The notes under the pieces: generated by a model
Database searches by the model: none
Seen by the model: only the letters and a program-made list of their open reading frames with translations
Told to the model about the DNA's origin: nothing
Made by a program: the position numbers and the translations under genes
Virus record (IMG/VR): IMGVR_UViG_3300037755_000886
Location: 1-64,000 of that record
Length of the DNA: 64,000 nt
DNA from: a virus
Lineage: Duplodnaviria > Caudoviricetes
Reading direction: 5' to 3' (one strand)
Shown: piece by piece, positions 18,471 to 62,145 of the stretch
Numbering within the stretch: position 1 is the first letter of the stretch
How the letters are laid out: each line of letters starts with the position of its first letter

Positions 18471-18833
18471 TCATGCGGCGGCCTTGCGCTCAAGTTGCTG
18501 GGCCTGCCGTCGGACACAGGCGCCGATCTCAGCGCACAGCCACGCTTGGCCCCACACGAGCAGCGGGTGCAGGCCGACGTGGCAGGCGAGGCGGTCGGCC
18601 ATGCGGGGAGTGATCCCGTGGCGTCGGTATCGGGGGATGTCGTCGCGTCGGACGCCGAGTTGGATGGCGGCCTGTCGGTCGCAGAAGAGCCCGTGGTTGC
18701 CGTGGTCGGCTTTCCCGCGGCCTTCGACGGCGGGCGCGTCCCACCGCAGGCGCAGCTGCCACTCAAGCGGCGCGTACGGGAGCCTGCCGGCGGGGATCGT
18801 CGGGCCCGGAGCGGTGAGCGACCGACCGGTCAT
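18471..18833 (-). CDS. HTH DNA-binding protein
   Basis: AAIQLGV..YRRHGI..ADRLACHVGLHPLLVWG. Confidence 0.55.
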   Translation of the reverse strand: MTGRSLTAPGPTIPAGRLPYAPLEWQLRLRWDAPAVEGRGKADHGNHGLFCDRQAAIQLGVRRDDIPRYRRHGITPRMADRLACHVGLHPLLVWGQAWLCAEIGACVRRQAQQLERKAAA

Positions 18834-32986: not shown

Positions 32987-33067
32987 GGCGCGTCTCCTGG
33001 CGCTGGGGGGTGCCACATTCCTGGTTCACGGTTATAGCTCCAACCCTGGACGAATGCCAGAGATTCA

Positions 33068-33095
33068 TTGCAATAACTGCTGTTCTGCGTATAGT
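33068..33095 (+). promoter_or_regulatory. Promoter for leaderless GntR mRNA
   Basis: TTGCAA-N16-TATAGT, ATG 7 nt downstream. Confidence 0.65.
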
Positions 33096-33102
33096 GATTG
33101 CT

Positions 33103-33921
33103 ATGACTCCAGTCCTCGCGGAACACCGCCCGAACTCACCGCATCGACGAGGTGCGATCTACCAGCAGATTGCCGATGACCTGCTCGAACGCATCACAGG
33201 CGGCGAGTTCCCGCCAGGGTCCCGCCTGCCAACCGAGCACCAGCTGATGGACCACTACCGGGCGTCGAGTACGACCGTCCGGGGCGCCGTGAAGGCGATC
33301 GCCGCTGCGGGAGTCGTCGAGACCCGCCACGGCGCCGGCAGTTTCGTGGTCGACCGGCTGCTCCTGTCGATCTACGCCACACACACCGAGGACCTCGACC
33401 GACGCGAGGGCATCACCGCACAGGACTCGTGGTCAACGGACGTACTCGACGCTGGCCGTGCACCACACCAGCGGTTCGAGTGCCTGAACGTCCCGGCCAC
33501 CGCCAGCGCGGCCGCGGTCCTCGGCGTCGAGGTCGACGATGCGCTCGTGAAGCGCCGGTGCTGGCGATCGGTCGACGGCGCGCCCGCGTCCATCGAGACC
33601 AGCCTGTTCCCCCGGTGGCTGGTCGAGGCCCTGCCCGAACTCGCCTCCCCCCACGACATCCGCCAGGGCACGACGTCCTACGTGGCCAAGCACGGGCACC
33701 CGATGACCCTCCACCAGGATCACCTCTCCGCCCGCCCCTTCACCCGGGAGGAAGCCCTGTTCTTCGAGGCGCCGCCGGGCGTTGTCGGTCTCATCCGAGA
33801 CCGGGTCTCCTTCGATGAGCCCGGTGGCCGCGTCCTGCGCTACATGGAGACGGTCTACCGATCGGACATGCACGAGGTCGTCTACGACGTGGCCGGCCGA
33901 GGGAATCGCCAGCTCCCATGA
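33103..33921 (+). CDS. GntR/HutC-family regulator with UTRA domain (KorSA-like)
   Basis: YQQIADDL..GSRLPTE..L..Y..S..TVR.A..G.GSFV; UTRA C-terminus. Confidence 0.92.
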   Translation: MTPVLAEHRPNSPHRRGAIYQQIADDLLERITGGEFPPGSRLPTEHQLMDHYRASSTTVRGAVKAIAAAGVVETRHGAGSFVVDRLLLSIYATHTEDLDRREGITAQDSWSTDVLDAGRAPHQRFECLNVPATASAAAVLGVEVDDALVKRRCWRSVDGAPASIETSLFPRWLVEALPELASPHDIRQGTTSYVAKHGHPMTLHQDHLSARPFTREEALFFEAPPGVVGLIRDRVSFDEPGGRVLRYMETVYRSDMHEVVYDVAGRGNRQLP

Positions 33922-38866: not shown

Positions 38867-39107
38867 CATCCCACGTTCCATCCCACGTTCTCCGCGCGGA
38901 GGCGCGCGAACACGCGCGTTGCGCCTCGCCCTCGCGCGCTACCGTCTGCGTACGCGCGCTGGTGCGCGGTTGTGCTCTTGACTCTTAATCCGCAGGTTCT
39001 GGGTTCGAATCCCAGGGGGCGTACCACCAGAAAGCGCAGGTCAAGGGCACTTTCTGAAGGTGGGAACGAACGAGGGACTAGGATCCATCCCACGTTCATC
39101 CCACATC
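38867..39107. repeat. Integrase arm-type sites of attP
   Basis: CATCCCACGTTC at 38867, 38879, 39086 and CATCCCACATC at 39097, flanking the core. Confidence 0.8.
38980..39026 (+). mobile_element. attP core = 3' half of tRNA-Lys(CTT)
   Basis: GACTCTTAATCCGCAGGTTCTGGGTTCGAATCCCAGGGGGCGTACCA: anticodon loop, T-arm, CCA; no D-arm or 5' anticodon stem. Confidence 0.88.
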
Positions 39108-39122
39108 GGAAGGCGGGGCGCC

Positions 39123-40394
39123 ATGGCGGCGAGCAAGAAGAAGGGCCCGCGCGAGAAGGGCTCTGGCTCGAAACGCGAGACACGCAAGAACGTCTGGGAG
39201 CTGCGGGTCAACCTGGCGCCCGACCCCGTTACCGGCAAACGACGCCAGCTCTCCGACACGTTCCGGGGCGGCGAGAAGGCCGCCAACGTCGCCCTGGCCA
39301 CGCTCATCTCCAAGACCCAGGCCGACCGGGCGCCGGCCACCGAGGCCACGTTCGGCTACCTGCTCACGACGTGGCTCGAGCGCTGCGAACGGAACCTCGC
39401 GGAGTCCACGGTCGTCGGATACCGGCGCATCGTCGATGACCTGTGGATGCCGAAGCTCGGCCACGTCCCCCTCGCCAGGCTCGAGTCCCGCCACCTGCAG
39501 GCCGTCCTCGACTGGGACCACCAGCGCAAGGTCACCCGCGGCAAGAAGGTCACGCCGATCAAGGCCGACACCGTGCTGCGCCACTGGGCCGCCGCCCGCA
39601 AGGCGTTGAACGACGCCGTGCAGATGGGGTGGATCCCGAGCTCGCCCGGCGACCGGGTGCTGCTGCCGTCGAAACGCAAGGGCCGCGACCGGGACCTGTC
39701 CAAGGACGAGCTCCTCAAGATCCTGCTGTGCGCCGACGAGATGGACCCCGCGCTCGGGCTGATCCTGCGCGCCGCGAGCCTGTCGGGCGCCCGCCGCTCG
39801 GAGATGGCCGGCCTGCGCTGGCCCGACGTCGACTGGGAACGCAACCGGCTGAGCTTCGAGCAGGGCGTGGTCGTGCTGGCCAACCCGAAACGCAAGCCGG
39901 GCGACCCGAAGCGGCGGCCCCGCAAAGTGGTCATCAGCGACACGAAATCCCACCAGTCGCGCCCGGTCACGCTCGACCCCGACTCGATGGAACTGCTGCG
40001 TCTCCTGCGCCTGTACGTCGAGGCCGTCGCCGAGCAGGTCGGCACGGAGCTCCTCCGCGATGCGTTCGTGTTCTCCCGCGAGCCTGACGGCTCCAAGCCG
40101 CTGCGTCCCGACTGGCTGTCGACGGCGTTCAAGAAGGCGGCGAAGAAGGCGGGGTTCCCCGAGGCGCACCTGCATCAGCTGCGACACCTGTCGGCGTCGG
40201 TGATGCTGTCGCACGGGATCCCGACGGCGGTCGCCTCGAAGCGGCTCGGTCACGCCGAGGAGACGACGACCATCCAGTTCTACTCCCGGGCGATCCAGTC
40301 GGACGAGGCCGCCGCCGAGGTGTTGGCCTCGGTGCTGTTCCCGCCGGCGAAGGCGCCGACCGTGCTCGAGGTGCCGGAAGCCGAAGCCAGCTGA
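39123..40394 (+). CDS. int: Tyrosine integrase
   Basis: GARRSE (R), HQLRH, LGH, FYS (Y); N-terminal arm-binding strand. Confidence 0.95.
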   Translation: MAASKKKGPREKGSGSKRETRKNVWELRVNLAPDPVTGKRRQLSDTFRGGEKAANVALATLISKTQADRAPATEATFGYLLTTWLERCERNLAESTVVGYRRIVDDLWMPKLGHVPLARLESRHLQAVLDWDHQRKVTRGKKVTPIKADTVLRHWAAARKALNDAVQMGWIPSSPGDRVLLPSKRKGRDRDLSKDELLKILLCADEMDPALGLILRAASLSGARRSEMAGLRWPDVDWERNRLSFEQGVVVLANPKRKPGDPKRRPRKVVISDTKSHQSRPVTLDPDSMELLRLLRLYVEAVAEQVGTELLRDAFVFSREPDGSKPLRPDWLSTAFKKAAKKAGFPEAHLHQLRHLSASVMLSHGIPTAVASKRLGHAEETTTIQFYSRAIQSDEAAAEVLASVLFPPAKAPTVLEVPEAEAS

Positions 40395-48501: not shown

Positions 48502-48530
48502 ATTGTCCGCCCATACCACTGGGGTGTCAA
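48502..48530 (-). promoter_or_regulatory. Strong leftward promoter
   Basis: TTGACA-N17-GACAAT; spacer starts CCCCAG like the 49479 promoter. Confidence 0.75.
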
Positions 48531-48647
48531 GTAGATCTGGGGACCAATCAATCCTTGTGCACAAGGTCATCCTGTGAGATGATCGATGGCATGGAGTCTT
48601 CACTCACAGCGGCAGGGTTGGCGCCGCCGACCACTAACCTCCCGGCC

Positions 48648-49459: not shown

Positions 49460-49478
49460 GATTGCTCCCCAGGGTCTC

Positions 49479-49507
49479 TTGACACCCCAGACCATCTGGG
49501 GTACATT
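49479..49507 (+). promoter_or_regulatory. Rightward promoter whose spacer is a perfect operator
   Basis: TTGACA-CCCCAGA CCA TCTGGGG-TACATT; ATG 6 nt downstream (leaderless). Confidence 0.8.
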
Positions 49508-51902: not shown

Positions 51903-52274
51903 TCAGGCGGTCAGGCGTGACCGCATCGGCTCGACGCTCAGCCCCTTGTGGGGCGTGTGCCGGTCGGGGCTGCAGGCAGCGAACGGGCCGAAGGTCGACT
52001 GCATGGCGGCAAGGTGCCGGTCGAGGTGGTCGAGCATCCAGGACGAGTAGGCGAGCGCGTCGCCGTGGGTCGTGACCTGCAGCCACGAGGCGTACAGGAC
52101 CCGCATCCGGGTGACGACCTCGGGGTGGCGGTCCCACTGCTGGCACCACCGGAGCGTGTTGCTGGCCCGGCGCTCGAGCACGTCGACGAACCAGAGCTGC
52201 ACCCAGGCGGCCAGCTCGTCCATGGTCGGCTCGGCGGTAGCGGGCGCGGATGGGTGGAGGTTGGTGACGGTCAC
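51903..52274 (-). CDS. DUF4913-domain protein (conjugative-element associated)
   Basis: WCQQWDRHPEVVTRMRVLYASW..SSW..DHLDRH..FGPFAAC..H. Confidence 0.85.
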   Translation of the reverse strand: MTVTNLHPSAPATAEPTMDELAAWVQLWFVDVLERRASNTLRWCQQWDRHPEVVTRMRVLYASWLQVTTHGDALAYSSWMLDHLDRHLAAMQSTFGPFAACSPDRHTPHKGLSVEPMRSRLTA

Positions 52275-53686
52275 GGCTTCCTCCTGAGCGTCTTGCCGAC
52301 CACCTGGGCCGGAGCGGGCGCAGGCTTCGACGTCCGGGGCTGCGGGGCCTGGTTGGCGGCGGCGGCCAGGCCGGGCGTGGCCGCGATCGCGGCCTGCATC
52401 GCTCCCCGGTGGGGCTGATGTGCGTACGACAGGCACGTGACCAACAGATTCGTGGTGCCCCGCGGTGCGCCGGTGGTGGAGTGGAGCGCAGCGGACGCGC
52501 TGGTCCGGGCATCGATGCCCCAACCGTCGGCGATCGCCTTCATCGAGTGGCCCTGCGAGACCAGCAAGGCCTGCGCCTTGGCCAGCGACTCGCCGGTGAC
52601 ACCCGCCGCCGCCAGACGCTCGGGCGACGCGACACCCTCACCCAACCTGGTCATCAGTTCCGCCTCGGCAGCCCCACCGAGCGGCTCGGGATCGGGGACC
52701 GCCTGGGGCTCATCGAAGACCGGCGCGGCCGCCATCATGGCGTCCGTCGGGGCGGCGCCGGCCGCCCGATGGCTGTCGTAGTGGGCCATTGCCGCCGGGT
52801 GCGTCGCCCGCAGGTTTTCCTCGGTGCGCGCCATCGCCTCGGCCGCGTACGCATCGGTTTCAGTGTGCGGCAGCGCGGACGCCCACACCCGCACGTTCGC
52901 TACCGGGTCCGATTGGCCCAGAGGATCCGTGGTCGACTGCGAGGACGCCGGGCGGCCCGCGGCCGCGCCCAAACCCGGCACGGCCCGACCGGCGGTGGCC
53001 TGCGGCTCGGGCGTCGACGGGGCCAACGTGACGTCCAACTCGGCGGCACAGGACGGCGTCGACGTCGCGGTCAGCTCCGGGTCCCGGCCGAGGATCGCCG
53101 TCAACTCCCCGACCGTGATCACGTCGGCGTCCTTGATGGCCATGTGGGTCCCGTAGTCGAGGACCCCGCACGCCTCGACGACGGAGACCCGGTAGATCTC
53201 CCAGTCGCCGGGCTCGGTGCCCTTGACGTACCCGGCCTCGCCGGGGAGGGGCAGGCGCTCGGCGACGAACGAGTGGCCCCGAGCGTTGCGCCAGGTGGCG
53301 GAGGTCTCGGTGAGGCTGAGGCTGTCGGGGGCGGGGCGGAGGTGGCTCGGTGCCGCCGTGTTGGTGTCAGTCCGCGTGCGCGGTGTCGTGGCATCGGGCG
53401 CAAGCTCGACCGCGGACGGCATGGCTGCCGCAGCCTCGACGATCCCGTCCCGCCACCTGCCCATCGCCTCAAAGTCCAGGCGGTCACCCACCCTGACATC
53501 GACGATCCGCCGCTGGAGCTTCGCGATCGTGTTCTGCCGGTAGTCGGTGGACACGTCGATCTGACTGGCGAGCTGACCGAGCTCGGCCTTGCGGAGCCCC
53601 AACCCGGCCACGTACGCAGCGGCCTCCTCGCGGGACTGCATCGCGTCGAGACGCCCACGCACCTCGACCGGATCGAAAGCGCTCAC
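52271..53686 (-). CDS. Ala/Pro-rich protein of ICE/plasmid type
   Basis: YD.HRA.GA.P..AM..AAPVF; low-complexity linkers. Confidence 0.55.
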   Translation of the reverse strand: MSAFDPVEVRGRLDAMQSREEAAAYVAGLGLRKAELGQLASQIDVSTDYRQNTIAKLQRRIVDVRVGDRLDFEAMGRWRDGIVEAAAAMPSAVELAPDATTPRTRTDTNTAAPSHLRPAPDSLSLTETSATWRNARGHSFVAERLPLPGEAGYVKGTEPGDWEIYRVSVVEACGVLDYGTHMAIKDADVITVGELTAILGRDPELTATSTPSCAAELDVTLAPSTPEPQATAGRAVPGLGAAAGRPASSQSTTDPLGQSDPVANVRVWASALPHTETDAYAAEAMARTEENLRATHPAAMAHYDSHRAAGAAPTDAMMAAAPVFDEPQAVPDPEPLGGAAEAELMTRLGEGVASPERLAAAGVTGESLAKAQALLVSQGHSMKAIADGWGIDARTSASAALHSTTGAPRGTTNLLVTCLSYAHQPHRGAMQAAIAATPGLAAAANQAPQPRTSKPAPAPAQVVGKTLRRKP

Positions 53687-53991
53687 GACGAACCGCCGAT
53701 CCCGACGTCGGCCAACCAGGCCAACACCATCGGGCGAATCGCCGGGTCGGCGAGCGTGTCACGCACCACGCGGCCCTCACAGCGCGGGTCCGCCGAGGAC
53801 TGCCACTCGTCGAGCGCCTCCTCGATGAGCACGTCGAGCGGGTGCGGGGCCGGCAGCTCCGGCTTGGCGTCGACCACCACGACGTCGACGTCACCGGCGG
53901 CGATCGCGTCGACGACATCGGGGGGCAGACGACGGTAGGCCTTGCTAGAGCGGGGGTGGGAGTGGGTGAGTGGGGCGTTGATGTCGATCAT
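53683..53991 (-). CDS. Hypothetical protein
   Basis: GGAGG RBS; coupled. Confidence 0.55.
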   Translation of the reverse strand: MIDINAPLTHSHPRSSKAYRRLPPDVVDAIAAGDVDVVVVDAKPELPAPHPLDVLIEEALDEWQSSADPRCEGRVVRDTLADPAIRPMVLAWLADVGIGGSS

Positions 53992-54059
53992 GGGGGCCTC
54001 CGGGGGCGGTGACGGGGAGTGACGGTCAGGTCGGTGGGCGGGGGAAACGGTGGATGGTT

Positions 54060-54221
54060 GGGATCGGGGGGTTTCGGGGGATCGGGGGGTGGGGGTCCCA
54101 TCCGATGTGAACTATGTGAAATGTGCAGGTCAGGGCTGGTTTCTGCGATGTGAAGTGGCATGTGAGGCGCGGTGTGAACTCACATCACCTCACAGCGCGA
54201 CTTCACATCGCCGGTTCACGT
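54060..54221. repeat. clt/oriT-like short-repeat array directly downstream of the translocase gene
   Basis: Six (A/G)TGTG(A/C)(A/G) copies 54105-54178 facing four inverted copies 54179-54221; GGATCGGGGG repeats upstream. Confidence 0.6.
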
Positions 54222-56288
54222 CCGGTCGACGACGTCACGGCGACGCACCGCGCGACGGTTGCCGTGCTGACGGGACGGCTCGATCGGGACCTTGGCGTCC
54301 CGGAGCTGCTCAACGAGCGCCTCAACGTCGACACCGAGGCGGACCGTGAGGTCATCGACCGGGACCACGTTCTCGTCGCCCATCGCATCGAGCACCCGGG
54401 CCAGCAGGTCGCCGGTCTCCTTGGCCAGCTGCACCTTCGGTGGTGCCGGCGCCCGTCGGACCAGATCGACGCCGAGGGCCCCGATGCGCTCGTGGTCCTG
54501 CTGGCTGAACAGGTAGGTCTTGACCTGCTGGATGCCCTTGTGTGCCTGGAAGCCCGACGGGTTGACGAGGCAAACGCCCTGGTAGTCGTCGGGCCAGCGG
54601 CTCGTGTCGTAGCCGTCACCCACCCGGCCGGTGCCGAGGACCAGGTTCGAGTCGGCGGCGTTCATCGTGCGGAACGCCACCCGGATCCCGAGCGATGCCT
54701 GTGCGCCACCGAGGGTGTCGGAGTCGAAGCGCTGGCCGGCGATGATCGGGACGATGCCGCCGGAACGCACCATCTGTGACAGGCCCATGACCCGCTCCTG
54801 GATCAGGGACCCGTGCTTGCGGTGGGCGACCAGGAAGTTGAGCTCGTCGATGATGACCGGAACCAGGGGCAGCCCGAACTCGGGGTTGCCGGTCACGGCC
54901 GGGGTGATCTGGCCGTGCGGCATGAGTCTGGGGTCTTCGCGGCGCAGGCTCGAGATCAGCTTGGCCCGGTCCTCGCGCATCCCGTAGACGACGTCCAGCA
55001 TCTCCAGGCACCGCTTGGCGCCGTCGTCACCGCACCCCTCGCCGGACCACAGGACCGCTTTCTCGTACATCGAGAACCCGCCCTCGCCCTTGCCGTCGTG
55101 GTACAGCGGCGTGGCCCGCGGGTCCAGGACCCCGGCGGCGAGAAGAGCCAGGACCAGCGTGGACTTCCCGTAGCCGGGAGCCGAGCAGATCCATGCACCG
55201 GAGGTCCCCGGGAGGACCAGGCCGTAGAGGTCCCCGAGGACCGTGGTCCCGACCGGGACCGGGTCCCACATGCTGAAGGTCCCGAGGTCCGCGAGTGGGG
55301 ACCGCACGGGGTCCGCGGTCATGGGGTCCTCGTTGAAGATCGTGAGGAGGACCTGCCCGGCGTGTCCGGCCCTGGACAGGAGAAGGCGCTGCTCAGCGAC
55401 CCGAAACGCCGAGGCCAACTCCTCCCGCTTGGCGAGGACCTTGGAGGCCGTGGTCCCCTCGGGGAGGTCGATGAGGCCCTCCCAGCCCTCGGGTCCCCGG
55501 TCCCGGAGATACATGCCGCCAACGGTCATGGTGCCGGGGAAACTGGCGGCCGTGAAGCTGGCGACGACGCGGTCCGAGCGGACCAGGGTGCGGGCCGGGT
55601 CCTCCGATCCTGCGGTCCTCACGGGACCCGCGTCCGGGTCCGGGTCCCCGTTGGGCCGGCCGTTGTGGATGAGGACCGCGAGGACCCCGGCGGCGAGGAC
55701 CGCACGGAGGACCGGGGAGACCTCGGGGGACACGATCAGGAGGACCGCGGCGAGGACCGCGGCGAGGACCGCGCAGGTCTTCCACGTTCGCTCGTTGCGG
55801 GTCCGGTGGCGCTCCTTGCGCTCGTACTGCCGGGCCCGCCCGTTCTTGTTCTCGGCGGCGTGGCGCTCCATCGCCAGGGTCTCGGCGTCGATCGCGTAGC
55901 GGACCAGGTGAAGGGAGAGCCGCCACCCGCCCCGAACCGCCCACCCGACTGGGCGGACCGCGTACCCGCGCTTGATCCCGTGGTAGGCGGCCTGGTTGAC
56001 CCCGTACCGCCCGGCGTGCGTCACGTTGCGCCGGACCCCGCTCGCGGTCTTCGCCCACGGCGGCAGGATGGGGAGCATCGCCGGGGCGACCCGGCCCGAG
56101 TCCTCGGCGTTGACATCCGGCTCGGCGACCACCGACACAGGCGGAGGGGGCAGGGTGTCGAGCTCGACCGTGTCCTCCGGATACGGGTCCCGCGGGTACG
56201 CCTGCCCCAGATAGATCTCCTGGTCGTCACCGCGTTTGAGGAGGTTCAGGGCGCGGCGGCCGTTCTGGTGGTCCGTGGTCGCGGTCAC
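54216..56288 (-). CDS. FtsK/SpoIIIE-family conjugal DNA translocase (TraB-like)
   Basis: TM segments, Walker A APGYGKST, Walker B IIDE, RSGGI..AGQR, C-terminal wHTH-like domain. Confidence 0.88.
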   Translation of the reverse strand: MTATTDHQNGRRALNLLKRGDDQEIYLGQAYPRDPYPEDTVELDTLPPPPVSVVAEPDVNAEDSGRVAPAMLPILPPWAKTASGVRRNVTHAGRYGVNQAAYHGIKRGYAVRPVGWAVRGGWRLSLHLVRYAIDAETLAMERHAAENKNGRARQYERKERHRTRNERTWKTCAVLAAVLAAVLLIVSPEVSPVLRAVLAAGVLAVLIHNGRPNGDPDPDAGPVRTAGSEDPARTLVRSDRVVASFTAASFPGTMTVGGMYLRDRGPEGWEGLIDLPEGTTASKVLAKREELASAFRVAEQRLLLSRAGHAGQVLLTIFNEDPMTADPVRSPLADLGTFSMWDPVPVGTTVLGDLYGLVLPGTSGAWICSAPGYGKSTLVLALLAAGVLDPRATPLYHDGKGEGGFSMYEKAVLWSGEGCGDDGAKRCLEMLDVVYGMREDRAKLISSLRREDPRLMPHGQITPAVTGNPEFGLPLVPVIIDELNFLVAHRKHGSLIQERVMGLSQMVRSGGIVPIIAGQRFDSDTLGGAQASLGIRVAFRTMNAADSNLVLGTGRVGDGYDTSRWPDDYQGVCLVNPSGFQAHKGIQQVKTYLFSQQDHERIGALGVDLVRRAPAPPKVQLAKETGDLLARVLDAMGDENVVPVDDLTVRLGVDVEALVEQLRDAKVPIEPSRQHGNRRAVRRRDVVDRT

Positions 56289-56431
56289 GGCGCGCTCACC
56301 GCGGTGATGCAGCAGCTGGCGCCGGGCCGGACGATCGGCGCCGGCGGGTTGGTGATCAGCAACACGAGGCCGATGGCCCACGTGATCAGCCACACGGTGG
56401 CCAGCAGGAGCGGGGGCGGACGGTTACGCAT
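56285..56431 (-). CDS. Small single-TM protein
   Basis: MRNRPPPLLLATVWLITWAIGLVLLI; GGAGGAG RBS. Confidence 0.5.
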   Translation of the reverse strand: MRNRPPPLLLATVWLITWAIGLVLLITNPPAPIVRPGASCCITAVSAP

Positions 56432-57377
56432 CGGGGGTCTCCTCCATGCGGGCACGGGCGAGGGGCAGGATCTGGAGGCGGACCCGGTCGTTGTTGACCC
56501 GGTGCCCCTTCTTGCGCAGGGCCTCGGCCAAGGGCTTCCAGCTGGACAGCACGCCTGGATCGGCGGCGGCCAGTCGGCAGGCGACTGCGGCAAGCTCGTC
56601 GTCGGTCAGCGCCGCCTTGGTGGCCGGCCGGCGCGCCGGGGGCCGTTTGGCCGGGGCCGGCCGGGTGACCCGCGGGCGTTCAGGAGCCTCCGTCACCTCG
56701 ACCGGTGCCGGGCCGGTGGGCTCCTCCTCCTGCTCGTCGACGTCGATCCCGGCGGCCGCGGCGATGATCCGGTACAGCTCCCGCTTGCGCGCCGGCGCGG
56801 CAGCGAGCGATCCGTGCCGGTCGGTCAACCGGGCCAGGAACCGGCGGCGCTCCAAGTCGAGGGCCTCGGCGTACGAGGTGATGCCCCACACCCGCATGCG
56901 GCGCCACAGGCGGAGCGTCGGCCACGGCGCGCACACCCAGCGGGCCAGCGGGATCCGGTCGGCGACCTCAACGAGGCGGGCCGTCATCGTGGCCTTGGCG
57001 GCCTCAACAGCGGCGGCGAACAGGGCGGGCAGGGCGGCGTGGCCGAGGATCCCGAACAGCCCGGTCTTGCCGGCGACGTTCAACGCGATCGTGACGCCGA
57101 TGAGCGCCCACGCGAACCAGCGGAGCCAGGCGACCTTGCGCTCCCCGCGGGTGAGAGCGAAGTCGAGGCCGGTGAAGAAGGCGATGGCGCCGTCAACGCT
57201 CGCGGGCAGCAGCCACGGCCGGTCCCATCCGTCGGCCGCGGCGACGGCGGCGACGTTCGTGAACGAGCCGATGGCGCCGAACGCTCCGAGGGCGGCGACA
57301 CCCGTCAGCATGACGGGGAGCAGCAGGTCCCGGGAGACGCCCGAGGGGCGGACGCGGTCGAGAAGCGCGGCGGTCAT
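56424..57377 (-). CDS. DUF2637 membrane protein (spread/transfer associated)
   Basis: GSF..V..A..W..PWLLPASVDG..LNV..HA.LP; RW...PW.T.RLWRRM..W.I.SY. Confidence 0.88.
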   Translation of the reverse strand: MTAALLDRVRPSGVSRDLLLPVMLTGVAALGAFGAIGSFTNVAAVAAADGWDRPWLLPASVDGAIAFFTGLDFALTRGERKVAWLRWFAWALIGVTIALNVAGKTGLFGILGHAALPALFAAAVEAAKATMTARLVEVADRIPLARWVCAPWPTLRLWRRMRVWGITSYAEALDLERRRFLARLTDRHGSLAAAPARKRELYRIIAAAAGIDVDEQEEEPTGPAPVEVTEAPERPRVTRPAPAKRPPARRPATKAALTDDELAAVACRLAAADPGVLSSWKPLAEALRKKGHRVNNDRVRLQILPLARARMEETPDA

Positions 57378-57961
57378 CGGAACACCCCGGCGCGTCGCTG
57401 CCCGTTGGTGCGCTGCTGATGGCACGACCGACCGCCACCCCCGCAGAGGGTGCGCAGGTTGGCGAGGTGATGGATGCAACCCGGCTCCCGATGGCGGCCG
57501 AGTGCAGCGTCGATGTGGTCGACCTCGAGATGCTCGGCGCTCCCGCACTGGGTGCACCGGTAGCCGTCCATGCGGCGACGGGCTGAGCGGGCCCGGTCGA
57601 ACACATGGTTCTCGTTGGCCTCGTCAGCGCACCGTGGGCCGCAGAAGTTGTAGCGGTTCCGGGGGATCAGCCCGTTGCACCACCGGCACGCCCACGGCCC
57701 ACCCTGCCAAGCGGACAGGACGCACGCCCGGTAGATGTCGTCGCCCTGGAGCACCGGCGGACGGGGACGGGACTGCTCCCGGTGCAACCACTTCCCGAGC
57801 ACGACGTAGGCCAGCCCGGCAAGGGCCGCGTCGATGGCGCGCCGCTCGATGTGGTGCGCCCACCGGTGCATGGCCCGGCGCAGGGATCGGCCGGCGACCC
57901 GCAGGACGAGGAACCCGAGCGCGACGAACACGACGAAGAGGAGGGTGAGGTCGGCGGTCAC
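57374..57961 (-). CDS. Membrane-anchored HNH endonuclease
   Basis: Two N-terminal TM segments; CRWC..FCGPRC; CTQCG..LEVDHI..NLRTLC..CH. Confidence 0.85.
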   Translation of the reverse strand: MTADLTLLFVVFVALGFLVLRVAGRSLRRAMHRWAHHIERRAIDAALAGLAYVVLGKWLHREQSRPRPPVLQGDDIYRACVLSAWQGGPWACRWCNGLIPRNRYNFCGPRCADEANENHVFDRARSARRRMDGYRCTQCGSAEHLEVDHIDAALGRHREPGCIHHLANLRTLCGGGGRSCHQQRTNGQRRAGVFR

Positions 57962-59037
57962 GGCCGGTCCCCGTTGCCGTTGCTGCCGTTGCCCGCGTGG
58001 GCGGGCGCCGGGGGTGGCACGTAGCCGGCCCAGTCGTTGCGGGCGTGCTGGTCGAGGGCGAGTCCGGCCAGGAACTCGCGGGTGTCCGCATGGACCTCAC
58101 CGGCTCGGGTGCGCCACGCCTCGGCTTCCGGGCTCGGGCTAGCGTTCGGCGCGGGCGGGCCCGGCTCGGCGAACGGACGCGGCACGTACCCGGCGGGGAC
58201 CAGTGGCTCGGCGAGTTCGTCGTGCGGGTAGTCGGCGGGACCCGCTTTGCGCTCGGCCCGCTTCGCCTTCCGGTCGGCCTTGCGCTGCGCCCGGGTCTTC
58301 TTCGGCGGCCGGGTCTGGCGCATCAACCACCGGTCGATGCGGCCGGGGCTCGACAGCTCCTCGTCGGGCACGCCGGCCTCGCGCTCGGCAGCCCACTGCC
58401 GCCCCCACGCGTCGCGGCGCCACATGCCGAAGCGCCGTACCTGGCGGGCGTCGCGGTGCCCTGCCCGCCAGTCGGATGCGACCCCGCGTGCCGCGCCCCG
58501 GATGCCCCGGCGCTTCACACGGCGGACCGTGAGGCGGCACAGGCTCATCACGGCCAGGAACATGCAGCCGATCGACGAGACGATGGCGCCGATGTGGAAG
58601 CCGTCGGCGAGCAGCCCCGCGGTGCGGGCCGGCCGGCCGGTAGGCGTCAACGTGAGCAGCGGCTGCGGCCCGTCCTTCGACGGGATGAACCCGCCGCTGC
58701 CGTCGGATGTCGGCATGCACTTGGGCGGCCAGTCCTCACATCGAATGCCCATTGACCGCTCAACCTGCGGTGTGACCGCGATCGTGTCGGCCACCGTCGC
58801 CATGGCGGCGTACAGCGGCCAGCAGATCAGTGCCGTGAGGACCGGCGAGAAGACCAGGAACCGGAGTCCCCACCGGACACCCCGGGTCGCGACCCGCGCG
58901 CCGACGAGCGCGTGGCTGAGGTCGAGGTGCAGGGGTGCGCCCTGCACTACCGCGTGTGCCGCGCTCGCACCATTTGCGGCGGCCTGGCTGGCGGTCTGGC
59001 GCAGCACCGTCCCAGTCGACTGAGGCGACAGGCCCAT
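57958..59037 (-). CDS. Two-TM membrane protein with basic cytoplasmic tail
   Basis: Hydrophobic segments; Cys pair in the outer loop. Confidence 0.65.
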   Translation of the reverse strand: MGLSPQSTGTVLRQTASQAAANGASAAHAVVQGAPLHLDLSHALVGARVATRGVRWGLRFLVFSPVLTALICWPLYAAMATVADTIAVTPQVERSMGIRCEDWPPKCMPTSDGSGGFIPSKDGPQPLLTLTPTGRPARTAGLLADGFHIGAIVSSIGCMFLAVMSLCRLTVRRVKRRGIRGAARGVASDWRAGHRDARQVRRFGMWRRDAWGRQWAAEREAGVPDEELSSPGRIDRWLMRQTRPPKKTRAQRKADRKAKRAERKAGPADYPHDELAEPLVPAGYVPRPFAEPGPPAPNASPSPEAEAWRTRAGEVHADTREFLAGLALDQHARNDWAGYVPPPAPAHAGNGSNGNGDRP

Positions 59038-59040
59038 CGG

Positions 59041-59346
59041 TCAGGCCCCGATCCCGAGGAGCCCGAGGTGGTAGCGGAGGATCACGCCGGCGGGCACGGA
59101 CGTGACCGACGGTCCGTCGACTCCGCCGCCCTTGGCGCCACCGATCTTCTGGGCGATGGTCGTCAGAATGTCGATGCCGAGGGCGAACGCCGCGTCGTTT
59201 ACCTGGGCCAGGACGTTGTGGATCATCCCAACCCCGCCCAGCGACACCCCGAACATGGCGCCCAAGAGCATGCCGTCCCACTGGGCGCCCCGGCGCGCCT
59301 TGGCGTAGACGAGCAGGACCAAGAAGAACAGCGGTGGGGTGAGCAC
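59041..59346 (-). CDS. Small membrane protein (pilin/Spd-like)
   Basis: Two hydrophobic segments; GGAGG RBS; first gene of the transfer operon. Confidence 0.55.
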   Translation of the reverse strand: MLTPPLFFLVLLVYAKARRGAQWDGMLLGAMFGVSLGGVGMIHNVLAQVNDAAFALGIDILTTIAQKIGGAKGGGVDGPSVTSVPAGVILRYHLGLLGIGA

Positions 59347-59391
59347 GGGGCCTCCGGGAGCGAGGGGGGTGCGGCATCAGACGTGGCCATA

Positions 59392-59448
59392 CATGCAGTG
59401 TCAACACTACATAGCTGCTACCGTACCATGCAGTGGACTCACTACATA
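59392..59448. promoter_or_regulatory. Twin operators overlapping the transfer-operon promoter
   Basis: CATGCAGTG-N4-CACTACATA at 59392-59413 and 59427-59448; minus-strand TTGACA at 59399-59404. Confidence 0.7.
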
Positions 59449-59500
59449 CGGGCCCACGAGATCCGTTAGCGGGTGACTACCGTCAGGAGGTCAGCGGGCC

Positions 59501-59815
59501 GTGACAGCGAGGGGCCGGATACGGTCCTGTGCCGTGGCCCCCACGCGACCGCTCCTCAGTGACCTGATCAGTGCGCGGGAAGTGGCCCAACTACTTGGAC
59601 TCTCGGGACCAACGACGGTCAGCGTTTACCGGACCGCCAGGCGACCCGACGGCACGCTCCGCTACCCCGACTTCCCCCCTCCCGTGCTCCCCCGCCACGA
59701 CGACCCGACGAGCGGTCAGTACTGGTGGCGGCCAGACATCCTGAAATGGCGCGCCAAGCACCCAGCGATCGGGCGCCACCGATCCGACGGCGACGATGTC
59801 ACACCCCCCTCGTAG
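59501..59815 (+). CDS. AlpA-like HTH regulator (Kor-like repressor candidate)
   Basis: DLISAREVAQLLGLS..TVSVYR..DFPPP..YW...DI.KW. Confidence 0.8.
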   Translation: MTARGRIRSCAVAPTRPLLSDLISAREVAQLLGLSGPTTVSVYRTARRPDGTLRYPDFPPPVLPRHDDPTSGQYWWRPDILKWRAKHPAIGRHRSDGDDVTPPS

Positions 59816-59881
59816 TCTGAGGCCAGGCGCGCCACCGCCCGTCCCGTCCCGCCGCGAGGCCAGGGCGGAACGCGACAAAGT

Positions 59882-59919
59882 CCGCCGGCCGTGACCCCCG
59901 TGAGGGTCGCGGCCGGCGG
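59882..59919 (-). terminator. Terminator of the late/lysis operon
   Basis: 16-bp stem CCGCCGGCCG(T/C)GACCC, then ACTTT on the minus strand. Confidence 0.65.
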
Positions 59920-59947
59920 CAGCAAAGGTAGCGATCAGGGGTCGGGG

Positions 59948-60490: not shown

Positions 60491-61114
60491 TCAGCGGGCG
60501 AGCGCGAACGTGGCGACCGCGACGAGGACACCGACCATGACAACGGCGAGGCCCATCACGGCGAGCATGTTGGCGTTCGACGCCGACTTTCCCGCGTGCG
60601 CGCCGCCGGCCGTGTCGATGCGATGCCGGACGTCGGCCAGCTGGGATTGCAGGTCGGCGATCTGGTTGACGAGACCGGCGATGAGCGCGGACACTTCGCC
60701 CTTCAACGCGAACGTGGCCTGCTGGTCGGTCAGGGTCTGGCGGAACTCGTTGACCGCGGCCAAGCGCTCGGTCAGGGCCTTCTCGGCCTTCAGCGTCGCT
60801 TCCTTGGCCGCGGCGAAAGCGGCGTCCGTAGCGGTCTGGGCGGCCGCCAACGCCTTCTCCCTGGCCTGCTCCTCGCCCTCGAAGCGCTGCTGGTAGCGCT
60901 GGTCCTTCTCGGTCGCGAGGTCACGTTGACGGGCGTCGTCCGCGGCCCGCAACGCGAGGTGGCGTTGGTCGAGGGCTTCGATGGCCGTGTTGATCGCGGC
61001 GAGAGCGACCAGTTCAGTTTGGGCCTGGGCGGCCATCTGGAGCGTGAAATGCTCGAAGACGGTCCCCAACGTCCACTCGCCGGATATGGCTGGCATCGGG
61101 GCAACCGCCGTCAC
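60491..61114 (-). CDS. Coiled-coil protein with C-terminal TM (lysis-associated)
   Basis: RF..EQA..A..AA.EA..KAE....RL..VNEFR; coupled to the endolysin. Confidence 0.7.
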   Translation of the reverse strand: MTAVAPMPAISGEWTLGTVFEHFTLQMAAQAQTELVALAAINTAIEALDQRHLALRAADDARQRDLATEKDQRYQQRFEGEEQAREKALAAAQTATDAAFAAAKEATLKAEKALTERLAAVNEFRQTLTDQQATFALKGEVSALIAGLVNQIADLQSQLADVRHRIDTAGGAHAGKSASNANMLAVMGLAVVMVGVLVAVATFALAR

Positions 61115-62145
61115 GCCTCAAGCCGGCGGCGCAGCTCCTCGGCGACCGCCCACCCGGCCATCTCGGCGAGCTCGGCGAGCTGTTCGGGGGTGAGGGCCAC
61201 GGTTGCCTCAACGACGGTCGTGTCACCCGCGGGCCACGCACGGGGCAGCAAGGTCCTGTCGTAGAACATCCAGTCGGGCACCTCACCGGGCTCACGGAGT
61301 CCCGACTTGGCGCCGGTGGCCACGATCCAGTCGCGGATGCCCTGGTGGCCGGCGACCTCCTCGGGGGTCATGGGCCGCACGAACTGGTCGGACGACAGCG
61401 CCTTGTACACGCCCTGGTGGCCGGGCGGTCCGCCGACCTCGACGAACCACTTCGAGCCGGGCTCGGTGATCAGCAGGTACGTCTCGATCATGTCGTCGTC
61501 CTCCTCGGGTTCGGGGGTCGTGGTCTCGGTCATGCGTGCCCAGAAGGCGTCGGTGACGACGTTCTGGTCGACGGTGTTCCCGGGGATCCCGGGGACGCGG
61601 GTGACGGAGTTGTATTGCCAGGCGTCCCAGTCGGACCACGCCGGCGGGAGCGCGGGCCGGAAGTTGGGGGGCACCGTGCCGGGCCGGTTGGTTCCGTAGT
61701 TGGCGATCCACAGCGCGCAATGCGACGGGGCGTGCCGGGAGAATCCGACGGTGGCCATCCCGCAGTAGATGGTCGACTCGCGGCCGACCTGGCGGGCGAC
61801 CTCATCGCAGAACGCCCCGGCCCACAGGTCGATCTCGTCACGGCCGAGGCCGTGCGGGTTGACCTCGATGTCCGCGGCGGGGAGCATCCGGCCGCGTCCG
61901 TGCCCGCAGATGACGGCGTGCTGCGCCTGGCGGCGAGGGTCGGCGTCCGGGACGCAGAAGTAGTAGGTGCCGTGCGGGAGGCCGACCGCTTCGGCTCCGG
62001 CGAGGTTCTCGTTCGCCCGCGAGTCCCGGTAGAGGCCGCCGTCGGCGCCACCGACCTTGATCCACGCGCCTTGCACCCCGGAGTCCTTGACGGCCTGCCA
62101 GTCGATGCGGCCCTGGTGGACGGAGACGTCGATCACTCGGACCAT
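61111..62145 (-). CDS. Endolysin, GH25 muramidase
   Basis: IDVSVHQG.IDW..V..IK..GTYYF..ADIE..YC..LWIANY..WQY. Confidence 0.92.
   Translation of the reverse strand: MVRVIDVSVHQGRIDWQAVKDSGVQGAWIKVGGADGGLYRDSRANENLAGAEAVGLPHGTYYFCVPDADPRRQAQHAVICGHGRGRMLPAADIEVNPHGLGRDEIDLWAGAFCDEVARQVGRESTIYCGMATVGFSRHAPSHCALWIANYGTNRPGTVPPNFRPALPPAWSDWDAWQYNSVTRVPGIPGNTVDQNVVTDAFWARMTETTTPEPEEDDDMIETYLLITEPGSKWFVEVGGPPGHQGVYKALSSDQFVRPMTPEEVAGHQGIRDWIVATGAKSGLREPGEVPDWMFYDRTLLPRAWPAGDTTVVEATVALTPEQLAELAEMAGWAVAEELRRRLEA

What the first reader, a model, noticed from the sequence alone, without database searches (positions are those of the whole stretch)
51903..59815. A conjugative DNA-transfer operon embedded in a tailed temperate phage
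Seen: an 8-kb co-oriented operon (pilin/Spd-like, TM protein, TM-HNH, DUF2637, FtsK-type ATPase with wHTH, DUF4913) with its own divergent repressor and twin operators, inserted right after the lysis terminator, with no separate integrase, Rep or relaxase. Established: actinomycete ICEs and plasmids move dsDNA with one FtsK-like TraB plus Spd proteins acting on a clt site. Inference: the excised phage circle could spread cell-to-cell without virions, a phage-AICE hybrid life cycle.
Basis: partly seen in the sequence, partly recalled or inferred. Interest (0 to 1): 0.85.

Follow-up and report, generated by a model that had tools for sequence, protein, structure and literature searches.

The report
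Tailed phage carrying TraB conjugation module
A temperate tailed phage of high-GC Actinomycetota, probably of Acidimicrobiia, carries as a conserved part of its genome a complete plasmid-type DNA-pumping transfer system with its own DNA recognition site, which suggests, without yet showing, that the phage can also pass from cell to cell without making virus particles.

Summary
Window 51903-59815 holds a co-oriented minus-strand operon of membrane proteins, with a divergent small HTH gene and two 20-bp palindromic operators. The operon includes a TM-anchored HNH, a DUF2637 protein and a 690-aa FtsK-like ATPase. It sits between the lysis cassette and the immunity/integrase region of an 83.8-kb tailed phage.

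The ATPase belongs with TraB of actinomycete conjugative plasmids, not with chromosomal FtsK. It is 28% identical to pSVH1 TraB over 444 aa. The family profile scores TraBs at 146-203 bits and chromosomal FtsK at 52-56 bits.

Directly after its stop codon lies a clt-type array of 7-8-bp repeats around a CTGACCTGC core. The same layout follows traB in pSVH1, pSG5 and other plasmids. In six related phage contigs the layout is kept but the repeat word changes with the lineage.

The block is not a recent insertion or an assembly chimera. It is syntenic in at least six independent phage contigs. A similar DUF2637-TraB-array set lies in pPaSha2, a closed 41.9-kb circular phage genome in cultured Pseudonocardia alni.

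Transfer itself is untested. [quoted passage not shown] Earlier notes of this scan had flagged the repeats on this same DNA.

The parts
59501..59815 (+). Divergent 104-aa HTH-like putative regulator of the operon
   Evidence: It has a weak PHROG DNA-binding hit (E 0.002). Orthologues at 31-52% identity sit at the same divergent position in five related phage contigs. Its repressor role is inferred.
59393..59447 (.). Twin operators: two copies of the imperfect palindrome ATGYAGTG-N4-CACTRCAT (59393-59412 and 59428-59447) in the divergent promoter region
   Evidence: There are only two matches in the 64-kb window, against 0.03 expected by chance. One copy overlaps a TTGACA hexamer.
59041..59346 (-). 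First operon gene, a 101-aa small hydrophobic protein preceded by GGAGG
   Evidence: High GC3 and sequence. No family hit. Relatives have two small ORFs of about 85 aa at this position.
57958..59037 (-). 359-aa membrane protein with 2 predicted TM segments, a Spd-like candidate
   Evidence: Hydropathy analysis. Orthologues at 29-46% identity occur in five related phage contigs. No family hit.
57374..57961 (-). 195-aa protein with an N-terminal TM anchor and a C-terminal HNH nuclease domain
   Evidence: PHROG HNH families, E 3e-7 to 4e-5. TM at residues 5-23. Conserved at 37-53% identity in the relatives. An 'endonuclease' gene sits at the matching place in a Kitasatospora plasmid operon.
56424..57377 (-). 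DUF2637 multi-TM protein (317 aa) with a conserved cytoplasmic C-terminal domain; positional analogue of SpdB2
   Evidence: Pfam PF10935, E 4e-17. 33-63% identity in the relatives. 36% identity to the DUF2637 protein of a Kitasatospora plasmid. Matches Streptomyces phage VWB gp24 and Gilgamesh gp79. Homology to pSVH1 SpdB2 was not shown.
56285..56431 (-). 48-aa single-TM protein whose reading frame overlaps both neighbouring genes
   Evidence: It resembles the 50-56-aa ORFs at the same place in L002, L003, L004 and L044. This parallels orf108 between spdB2 and traB in pSVH1.
54216..56288 (-). TraB-type FtsK-like dsDNA translocase (690 aa): N-terminal TM region, motor domain, C-terminal winged helix
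   Evidence: 28% identity over 444 aa to pSVH1 TraB, E 1e-25. The family HMM scores plasmid TraBs at 146-203 bits and chromosomal FtsK at 52-56 bits. Tree. Walker A and B residues are invariant. The model best matches the FtsK motor bound to dsDNA, E 1e-12. The C-terminal domain has H-E-H-H-E-E topology.
54100..54215 (-). clt-type array of about eight YTCACAY / RTGTGAR repeats in two orientations around a CTGACCTGC core (54125-54133), starting just after the traB stop codon
   Evidence: Seven of the 15 YTCACAY matches in the window fall within 104 bp. The same architecture, with lineage-specific repeat words, occurs in six related phage contigs. The same architecture and core follow traB in pSVH1, pSG5 and other plasmids.
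53683..53991 (-). 102-aa protein of unknown function, specific to this phage
   Evidence: High GC3. No family hit. No orthologue in the relatives.
52271..53686 (-). 471-aa ORFan, specific to this phage
   Evidence: Only itself was found among 5.8 billion proteins. The Atlas gave no usable hit. No family hit.
51903..52274 (-). DUF4913 protein (about 123 aa from the GTG at 52274), last gene of the operon in this phage
   Evidence: Pfam PF16259, E 1e-21. Start and RBS. Absent from the relatives.
59840..59920 (.). Two GC-rich hairpins between the end of the lysis-side genes and the end of the regulator gene; likely a bidirectional terminator
   Evidence: RNA fold -81.6 kcal/mol, z -2.46. No T-tail terminator was found by the simple scan.
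38980..39026 (+). attP core, outside the finding: 47 nt identical to the 3' part of tRNA-Lys(CTT) of Acidimicrobiia, next to the phage tyrosine integrase (39060-40394)
   Evidence: ARAGORN call. The exact 32-mer occurs in only 17 species genomes, nearly all Acidimicrobiia; identity extends over 47 nt and the 5' half differs. Integrase Pfam hit.

Best explanation
The block is a complete TraB-type DNA-transfer system. This is the single-protein, double-stranded-DNA conjugation system of actinomycete plasmids and AICEs. Here it is an ancestral, conserved part of a lineage of temperate siphophages whose hosts are probably Acidimicrobiia.

Proposed mechanism:
1. A small HTH protein bound to two palindromic operators controls a divergent promoter.
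2. When that control is relieved, the operon makes a membrane complex. Its parts are a TM-anchored hexameric FtsK-like pump (TraB), a multi-TM DUF2637 protein, three further small or medium membrane proteins, and a membrane-anchored HNH nuclease.
3. The C-terminal winged helix of TraB binds the 7-8-bp repeats of the clt array that lies directly behind its own gene.
4. The motor then pumps the phage's own double-stranded genome (the excised or replicating form) into an adjacent cell.
5. There the genome can integrate at tRNA-Lys through the phage integrase, or enter the lytic cycle.

Shown here: gene content, the TraB-clade affinity, the clt-type array and its change of repeat word between lineages, conservation of the block in phages, and physical linkage.

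Inferred: binding of TraB to the array, assembly of the complex, the direction and form of the DNA that is moved, and any transfer at all. The idea that the TM-anchored HNH linearises the circle for threading is speculation.
For: IDENTITY OF THE ATPASE.
- tblastn against plasmids gives 44 hits, all in actinomycetes and 38 of them in Streptomyces. They include the model TraBs of pSVH1 and pSG5.
- BLASTP against pSVH1 TraB gives E 1e-25 over 444 aa, reaching beyond the Pfam motor core.
- The family HMM scores plasmid TraBs at 146-203 bits over positions about 38-620. It scores chromosomal FtsK of the likely host class at 52-56 bits, over the motor only.
- In the tree the phage clade (support 99) groups with the plasmid TraBs (support 83), apart from chromosomal FtsK (support 100).
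- Walker A and B are invariant, a TM segment is predicted, and the C-terminal domain has winged-helix topology.
- The model's best structural matches are FtsK motor domains bound to dsDNA.

CIS SITE.
- Seven of the window's 15 YTCACAY words lie in 104 bp directly after the traB stop codon.
- Six related phage contigs keep the same layout but use different repeat words: TCACAY, TCACC, CTTCACC and ACAGGGCA, and CTCCGCG in the distant one. The wing of the winged helix differs in step.
- The pSVH1 clt region (GACCCGGA four times plus one inverted copy) and the regions after traB in pSG5 and other plasmids share the layout and the CTGACCTGC core.
- Of 23 exact CTGACCTGC matches in 309.5 kb, 11 lie in the 2.3% of sequence just after traB.

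OPERON LOGIC.
- All six core products are predicted or hydrophobic membrane proteins with overlapping stop and start codons.
- pSVH1 has spdB3-spd79-spdB2-orf108-traB under a divergent regulator (PMC4447253).

INTEGRAL TO PHAGES.
- The same block sits after the lysis genes and before the integrase in L002, L003, L004, L044 and L045. A more distant version, with a GntR regulator, sits there in L043.
- A further distant TraB, with its own repeat array but without the other block genes, lies on L049, a contig with an integrase and lysin-like genes.
- pPaSha2 is a closed circle that carries terminase, portal, capsid, holin, integrase and the DUF2637-TraB-array set.

OTHER.
- No defence family matched.
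Against: - No experiment or expression data exist.
- The DUF2637 protein is not demonstrably SpdB2 (BLASTP not significant; HHalign 14%). The other membrane proteins have no known family.
- The regulator is a small HTH protein, not the GntR TraR/Kor of plasmids.
- The inferred host class, Acidimicrobiia, has no described TraB-type conjugation and is mostly non-mycelial.
- The region between the lysis genes and the integrase is also where lysogen-expressed accessory or defence genes of actinophages usually sit (my own knowledge).
- An 84-kb genome is larger than most AICEs.
- The match between repeat word and wing sequence rests on only six lineages.
Confidence: 0.55

Rival explanations
1. Same machine, different job. 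The TraB-clt system handles the phage genome inside one cell line or filament. It would clear or distribute replicating or excised phage DNA across closing septa into daughter cells or resting cells, as FtsK or SpoIIIE does with KOPS/SRS. It would not deliver DNA to a separate recipient.
For: The fold and motor are of FtsK type. The protein recognises a site on its own DNA. In Streptomyces, TraB and the Spd proteins also drive spread across septal cross-walls within a mycelium (PMC4447253). Some candidate host families, such as Microthrixaceae, include filamentous members (plus my own knowledge).
Against: The ATPase groups with conjugative TraBs, not with chromosomal FtsK. The repeats are clustered at one locus like a clt and are not spread and skewed along the genome like KOPS; the other 8 YTCACAY words in 64 kb are below the chance expectation. 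An integrating prophage needs no segregation aid.
Confidence: 0.2
2. A lysogen-expressed accessory cassette that acts on other DNA. It could work as entry exclusion or defence against incoming phages or plasmids, or it could mobilise host chromosome or other elements rather than the phage itself.
For: It lies in the lysis-to-integrase region with its own regulated promoter, where actinophage lysogeny-expressed genes cluster (my own knowledge). It includes a membrane-anchored HNH nuclease. In Streptomyces, TraB also mobilises chromosomal markers through clt-like sequences (PMC4170104).
Against: No PADLOC defence family matched. The cis array lies on the phage and changes its repeat word together with the protein's wing, which points to recognition of self DNA. 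Six conserved genes plus a site is far more than known exclusion systems need.
Confidence: 0.12
3. An artefact or a passenger: a chimeric assembly, or an independent AICE or its remnant that happens to sit in this phage and is decaying.
For: The block's relatives are plasmid and AICE genes. The record is a metagenomic contig without terminal repeats.
Against: The same junctions recur in at least six contigs from JGI, ENA and Logan samples and in a closed circular replicon. All reading frames are intact at 41-61% protein identity, which implies long purifying selection. There are no flanking direct repeats and no integrase or Rep of its own. GC content is uniform across the junctions.
Confidence: 0.03

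Closest known systems
TraB-clt-Spd transfer system of Streptomyces plasmids (pSVH1, pSG5, pIJ101) and AICEs (pSAM2, SLP1)
   Same: - A TM-anchored FtsK-like pump with a C-terminal winged helix.
- An array of 7-8-bp repeats around a CTGACCTGC core directly after traB.
- Upstream translationally coupled membrane-protein genes, with a small ORF between the large membrane protein and traB.
- A divergent regulator with repeated operators (PMC4447253).
   Different: - The carrier is a tailed phage with capsid, tail and lysis genes, not a plasmid or AICE.
- There is no Rep in the block.
- The regulator is a small HTH protein rather than a GntR (the distant phage relative L043 does have a GntR).
- There is a TM-HNH gene, and a DUF2637 protein in place of a recognisable SpdB2.
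- The ATPase is only about 28% identical and forms its own deep clade. The next cluster in 1.84 billion representatives scores 310 bits, against 899 bits within the family.
pPaSha2 of Pseudonocardia alni Shahu (CP052773.1), deposited as a plasmid
   Same: A 41.9-kb closed circle carrying terminase, portal, HK97 protease, capsid, tail genes, holin, integrase and Bet. It also has a DUF2637-TraB pair between the lysis and integrase regions, followed by a GCTAC-repeat array with the CTGACCTGC core. The family HMM scores its TraB at 198 bits.
   Different: It is a different phage lineage in a different host class, and only 29% identical in TraB. It has no HNH gene and no 359-aa gene. An extra small ORF lies between traB and the array. 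It has not been described as a phage or as conjugative in the paper on the strain (PMC8928166).
SpdB2-like or DUF2637 membrane proteins, and FtsK-like genes, of cultured actinophages (VWB gp24, Gilgamesh gp79 and gp10, phiC31)
   Same: The DUF2637 protein matches VWB gp24 (E 5e-6) and Gilgamesh gp79 (E 2e-16). The literature has already suggested that Spd homologues on actinophages help spread phage DNA (PMC4447253).
   Different: tblastn with this TraB found no match (E <= 1e-3) in any of 50,697 GenBank phage records. In VWB and Gilgamesh the DUF2637 gene is not paired with a TraB-clt unit.
Phage-plasmids (P1, N15, SSU5 and similar)
   Same: Elements that combine phage functions with functions typical of plasmids.
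   Different: Phage-plasmids combine virions with plasmid replication and partition, not with conjugation. [quoted passage not shown] This phage integrates through a tyrosine integrase and attP.

Membership tests
TraB-type conjugative dsDNA translocase (actinomycete plasmids and AICEs) | FtsK/SpoIIIE-type motor with intact Walker A and B | tested here: met
   phrog_1358, E 7e-17. G372, G374, K375, D481 and E482 are invariant in the family. Foldseek finds the FtsK motor bound to dsDNA, E 1e-12. Pfam PF01580 reaches its cut-off only in some relatives.
TraB-type conjugative dsDNA translocase (actinomycete plasmids and AICEs) | Closer to plasmid TraB than to chromosomal FtsK/SpoIIIE or EccC | tested here: met
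   The HMM scores TraBs at 146-203 bits, nearly full length, and chromosomal FtsK at 52-56 bits, motor only. Tree. BLASTP against pSVH1 TraB, E 1e-25. The sample of FtsK outgroups is small.
TraB-type conjugative dsDNA translocase (actinomycete plasmids and AICEs) | N-terminal membrane anchor | tested here: met
   Hydropathy peak at residues 172-190 and long helices at 150-210 in the model.
TraB-type conjugative dsDNA translocase (actinomycete plasmids and AICEs) | C-terminal winged-helix DNA-recognition domain | tested here: met
   H-E-H-H-E-E topology with pLDDT about 90. Weak Pfam DprA_WH hit. Foldseek hits are only to winged-helix regulators and are all weak (E 0.04-0.2).
TraB-type conjugative dsDNA translocase (actinomycete plasmids and AICEs) | A clt locus with about 8-bp repeats next to traB on the same replicon | tested here: met
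   a clustered repeat array directly after traB, with the same architecture and CTGACCTGC core as in pSVH1 and pSG5.
TraB-type conjugative dsDNA translocase (actinomycete plasmids and AICEs) | Specific binding of TraB to the repeats, hexameric pore, and traB-dependent transfer | not testable with these tools
   This needs EMSA, electron microscopy and mating assays.
TraB-type conjugative dsDNA translocase (actinomycete plasmids and AICEs) | Kil-Kor control by a divergent GntR-type TraR/KorA | tested here: not met
   The divergent gene encodes a 104-aa HTH-like protein, not a GntR. The distant phage relative L043 does have a divergent GntR. A GntR/UTRA gene lies 26 kb away at 33010-33921.
AICE (integrase + replication + Tra modules bounded by att; Ghinet 2011, PMC3218068) | Own integrase and Rep (RepSA, RepAM or Prim-Pol) next to tra, bounded by att repeats | tested here: not met
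   There is no Int or Rep family in 51903-59815. No flanking direct repeats. The only integrase and attP are the phage's, 12 kb away. The block is therefore not an AICE nested in a phage.
SpdB2 spread protein | Sequence or profile homology to pSVH1/pSG5 SpdB2 | tested here: inconclusive
   BLASTP not significant. HHalign probability 14%. The DUF2637 protein shares SpdB2's position upstream of traB and is multi-TM; the four TM helices of SpdB2 itself are taken from PMC4447253. It matches VWB gp24. I could not confirm that gp24 is the gene that paper cites.
Temperate tailed phage (Caudoviricetes) | Terminase, portal, capsid, tail and lysis genes, plus integrase and attP, on one molecule | tested here: met
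   CheckV estimates 90% completeness.

The most novel reading that the evidence does not exclude
These are the first self-transmissible (conjugative) tailed phages. They would form a lineage with two horizontal routes: virions, and TraB-driven contact transfer of the double-stranded phage genome from a clt site. The same design would have arisen or been kept in at least two actinobacterial classes, and the membrane-anchored HNH nuclease might open the circle for threading through the pump.
Probability: 0.4. Interest if true: 0.92.

Novelty: new variant of a known kind. Interest (0 to 1): 0.8.

Why it matters
Phages and conjugative elements are treated as separate transfer routes. [quoted passage not shown]

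A phage lineage that keeps a full TraB pump with its own clt for long evolutionary times would blur that boundary. Such a phage could spread without lysis, without a receptor and without exposure outside the cell. That would change how its host range, defence evasion and gene flow are modelled.

It also offers a tractable test case, pPaSha2 in a cultured and genetically accessible Pseudonocardia. The conserved CTGACCTGC core, and repeat words that change with the lineage, give a natural series for studying how TraB reads its clt.

Tried and rejected
- Nucleotide search of the block against phages found no match. Against plasmids it found only four short DUF2637 patches.
- tblastn of the ATPase against 50,697 phage records found no match.
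- Sequence search against the PDB found nothing.
- NCBIfam gave only a sub-threshold EccC hit.
- PADLOC gave only non-significant hits. I therefore did not file the block as a defence system.
- IMG/VR and GTDB scans for relatives of the ATPase found none. A broader alignment was too diverse to scan with.
- Five Acidimicrobiia genomes hold only chromosomal-type FtsK. Their integrases are only about 33% identical to the phage's.
- No support for DUF2637 as SpdB2.
- The 471-aa protein is an ORFan.
- I looked for att-like repeats around the block and found only low-identity GC-rich chance matches.
- The simple scan found no consensus promoter and no T-tail terminator.
- The tRNA-Lys called by ARAGORN is not a real tRNA gene. 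Only its 3' 47 nt match host tRNAs, so I read it as attP. No second copy occurs in the 83.8-kb record, so the record is the unintegrated form.
- One literature search was wasted because 'TraB' matched words beginning 'trab-'.
- The 57-aa ORF at 53988-54161 overlaps the array, is proline-rich and fails the GC3 test. I treat it as not a gene.

Full report
WHAT THE WINDOW IS.
The window is the first 64 kb of an 83,819-bp IMG/VR virus record (linear, CheckV 90% complete). GC content is a uniform 70% or so. Nearly all genes lie on the minus strand.

Reading that strand from the right end gives the following order:
- Large terminase, about 40% identical to terminases of Rhodococcus, Arthrobacter and Gordonia phages.
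- Portal, S78 prohead protease, HK97-type capsid and tape measure.
- Tail genes, a GH25 lysin at 61111-62145 and small lysis-side genes.
- The block under study.
- A short plus-strand cluster and an apparent immunity region.
- A tyrosine integrase at 39060-40394.
- Early genes: DUF2303, two methyltransferases (one with an intein) and a DUF3987 primase-helicase.

This is the usual map of a temperate actinobacterial siphophage in its unintegrated form.

HOST.
ARAGORN calls a tRNA-Lys(CTT) just before the integrase. Only its 3' 47 nt are tRNA-like, and the 5' half does not match real tRNAs. The 32-nt 3' end occurs exactly in only 17 of about 185,000 species genomes. Nearly all of these are Acidimicrobiia: Iamiaceae, Microthrixaceae, Acidimicrobiales and related groups. 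I read this as the attP core and take Acidimicrobiia as the likely host class. That is an inference. No second copy exists in the record.

THE BLOCK.
The genes, their coordinates and their evidence are listed under 'parts'. Five points matter here:
- The core operon has six translationally coupled genes. By hydropathy, or by visibly hydrophobic sequence for the first gene, all six encode membrane proteins.
Relatives carry the same small ORF.
- The divergent 104-aa HTH-like gene and the two 20-bp palindromes are real, and the palindromes are unique in the window.
- Three further genes (102 aa, a 471-aa ORFan and DUF4913) follow the repeat array only in this phage.
- No integrase, Rep, relaxase or defence family is present.

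THE ATPASE IS A TRAB.
- Its only close relatives are about a dozen metagenomic proteins at 41-61% identity.
- In 1.84 billion cluster representatives, the family collapses to two clusters. There is then a gap from 899 to 310 bits, followed by a broad superfamily of 650-800-aa proteins (372 clusters at E <= 1e-30).
- Against plasmids, all 44 tblastn hits are in actinomycetes. They include pSVH1 and pSG5, the plasmids on which TraB was characterised.
- BLASTP against pSVH1 TraB gives 28% identity over 444 aa, E 1e-25.
- An HMM of the phage family scores six plasmid or chromosomal TraB-like proteins at 146-203 bits along most of their length. It scores chromosomal FtsK of four Acidimicrobiia genomes at 52-56 bits, over the motor core only.
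- A likelihood tree separates chromosomal FtsK (support 100) from a group that holds the plasmid TraBs and the phage clade (support 83; phage clade 99). The outgroup sample is small, so the tree is supporting evidence rather than decisive.
- The AlphaFold model (pLDDT 70.5) has long N-terminal helices that include the TM segment, and a confident motor. The motor's best PDB matches are FtsK motors bound to dsDNA (E 1e-12), followed by the TcpA coupling protein and EssC/EccC.
- The model also has a confident C-terminal H-E-H-H-E-E domain. Folded alone, that domain finds only winged-helix regulators, and only weakly.

THE CIS SITE.
This is the strongest new evidence. Two earlier first-stage notes of this scan (e1-5912210 and e1-5912212) had pointed to repeats just behind the ATPase gene, and I tested them.
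- Seven of the 15 YTCACAY words in the whole window fall within 104 bp that begin eight bases after the stop codon. Degenerate copies raise the count.
- The region after traB in L002, L003, L004, L044 and L045 has the same plan. Two or three repeats run in one direction, three run in the other, a spacer ends in CTGACCTGC, and two more repeats follow.
- The repeat word differs between lineages: TCACAY, TCACC, CTTCACC or ACAGGGCA. The distant L043 uses CTCCGCG.
- The wing of the C-terminal domain varies in parallel: SRQHGNRR, SRGHGNRR, SSRHGGRL, or unalignable. This is suggestive, but it rests on only six lineages.
- As a control I read the same region in pSVH1. The known TraB recognition word GACCCGGA occurs four times plus once inverted, directly after traB, and the same CTGACCTGC follows.
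- pSG5 and a S. decoyicus plasmid show the same pattern. pXL100, pPaSha2, a Nonomuraea locus and three further metagenomic TraB loci show it with their own repeat words and with an exact or one- to two-mismatch core.
- Of 23 exact CTGACCTGC matches in 309.5 kb of these loci, 11 lie in the 450 nt after traB, which is 2.3% of the sequence.
- That clt regions hold direct 8-bp repeats read by the cognate TraB is established (PMC4447253, PMC4170104). The shared core is, as far as I know, not described; I mark that statement as coming from memory.

NOT AN INSERTION, NOT A CHIMERA.
- The core block sits after the tail and lysis genes and before a tyrosine or serine integrase in five contigs of 27-67 kb (L002, L003, L004, L044, L045). 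They come from JGI, ENA and Logan samples. Their lysins and integrases differ.
- A more distant version, under a divergent GntR regulator as in plasmids, sits behind the lysin in L043.
- The nearest outgroup TraB (P0014) also lies on a phage-like contig with an integrase and lysin-like genes, and it has its own array.
- No repeats flank the block.
- pPaSha2 is a 41.9-kb closed circle from cultured Pseudonocardia alni Shahu, deposited as a plasmid. It encodes terminase, portal, protease, capsid, tail genes, holin, integrase and Bet. It also has a DUF2637-TraB pair with an array between the lysis and integrase regions.
- The design therefore exists in at least two actinobacterial classes, and in one strain that can be grown and engineered (PMC8928166).

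RELATION TO THE SPD GENES.
- The operon order parallels pSVH1 (spdB3, spd79, spdB2, orf108, traB).
- It also parallels a Kitasatospora plasmid operon under a divergent GntR: a 340-aa protein, an endonuclease, a small ORF and a DUF2637 protein.
- The DUF2637 protein is 36% identical to that plasmid protein. It also matches gp24 of Streptomyces phage VWB and gp79 of phage Gilgamesh.
- I could not show that the DUF2637 protein is homologous to pSVH1 SpdB2. I therefore call it a positional and topological analogue only.

HOW IT MOST LIKELY WORKS.
My best reading, at 0.55, is that the phage uses this machine on its own DNA. TraB binds the array behind its gene and pumps the double-stranded genome into a neighbouring cell. 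The other membrane proteins form or stabilise the passage.

Rival readings:
- The same machine is used only within a cell line or filament (0.2).
- It is a lysogen-expressed cassette that acts on other DNA (0.12).
- It is an artefact or a decaying passenger (0.03).

The clustering of the repeats at one locus, and the change of repeat word in step with the protein's wing, argue for recognition of self DNA. This favours the first two readings.

Nothing here shows expression, binding or transfer.

NOVELTY.
FtsK-like genes and Spd-like genes on actinophages are known and have been commented on (PMC13587820, PMC4447253). However, tblastn with this TraB found no match (E <= 1e-3) in any of 50,697 GenBank phage records.

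I found no paper that describes a phage with a TraB-clt unit. [quoted passage not shown]

The parts are of known kinds, and their combination in a tailed phage is new. I class the finding as a new variant of a known kind, with high interest that depends on the transfer experiment.

Noticed in passing
window 54125-54133; L005 about 8288-8296 (pSVH1); L046 about 7595 (pSG5); L006, L008, L049 and others: A CTGACCTGC core, exact or with 1-2 mismatches, sits inside the repeat array after traB in nearly every TraB locus examined, on plasmids and phages alike. The flanking repeat word differs in each. I do not know of a description of this core. It may be a loading or start site shared by all TraBs.
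   Followed up: partly
L008 and L052 (CP052773.1, whole record): The 'plasmid' pPaSha2 of cultured Pseudonocardia alni Shahu is a complete tailed-phage genome. It has terminase, portal, protease, capsid, tail genes, holin, integrase and Bet, plus a DUF2637-TraB pair and a repeat array. It is a ready experimental system.
   Followed up: partly
window 38952-39026: The tRNA-Lys(CTT) called by ARAGORN is a pseudo-tRNA. Only the 3' 47 nt match real tRNAs, namely those of Acidimicrobiia MAGs. It is the attP core and gives a host clue. In loci L017 and L020 the sequence beside this tRNA resembles the phage side, as if related prophages sit there.
   Followed up: partly
window 20323-21915 (-): An N6/N4 DNA methyltransferase gene is interrupted by an intein (Hint plus LAGLIDADG domains). 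It lies next to a C5 methyltransferase gene at 18830-20326.
   Followed up: no
window 48519-48549 and 49460-49490: A 31-nt inverted pair contains TTGACACCCCAG-type promoter-like words with CCCCAG/CTGGGG palindromes. It brackets a roughly 900-bp plus-strand stretch and looks like the phage's immunity switch.
   Followed up: no
window 33010-33921 (+): A GntR/UTRA regulator gene lies in the early region, 26 kb from the block. This is the family of TraR/KorA, which controls traB on plasmids. In the distant phage relative L043 a GntR gene sits right beside the TraB operon.
   Followed up: no
L054 (Streptomyces phage Gilgamesh, NC_073461.1): This 129-kb cultured phage has a DUF2637-like membrane protein (gp79) flanked by AAA-ATPases and a ParB-like gene. 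It also has a separate FtsK-like translocase (gp10) far away. This may be a different arrangement of related parts.
   Followed up: no
window 53988-54161 (-): A 57-aa proline-rich ORF overlaps the repeat array and the GGGGG/CCCCC-rich stretch behind it. It fails the GC3 test and is probably not a gene. In the relatives this spot holds a GC-rich terminator hairpin, which this phage lacks, so transcription may run on into its three extra genes.
   Followed up: partly
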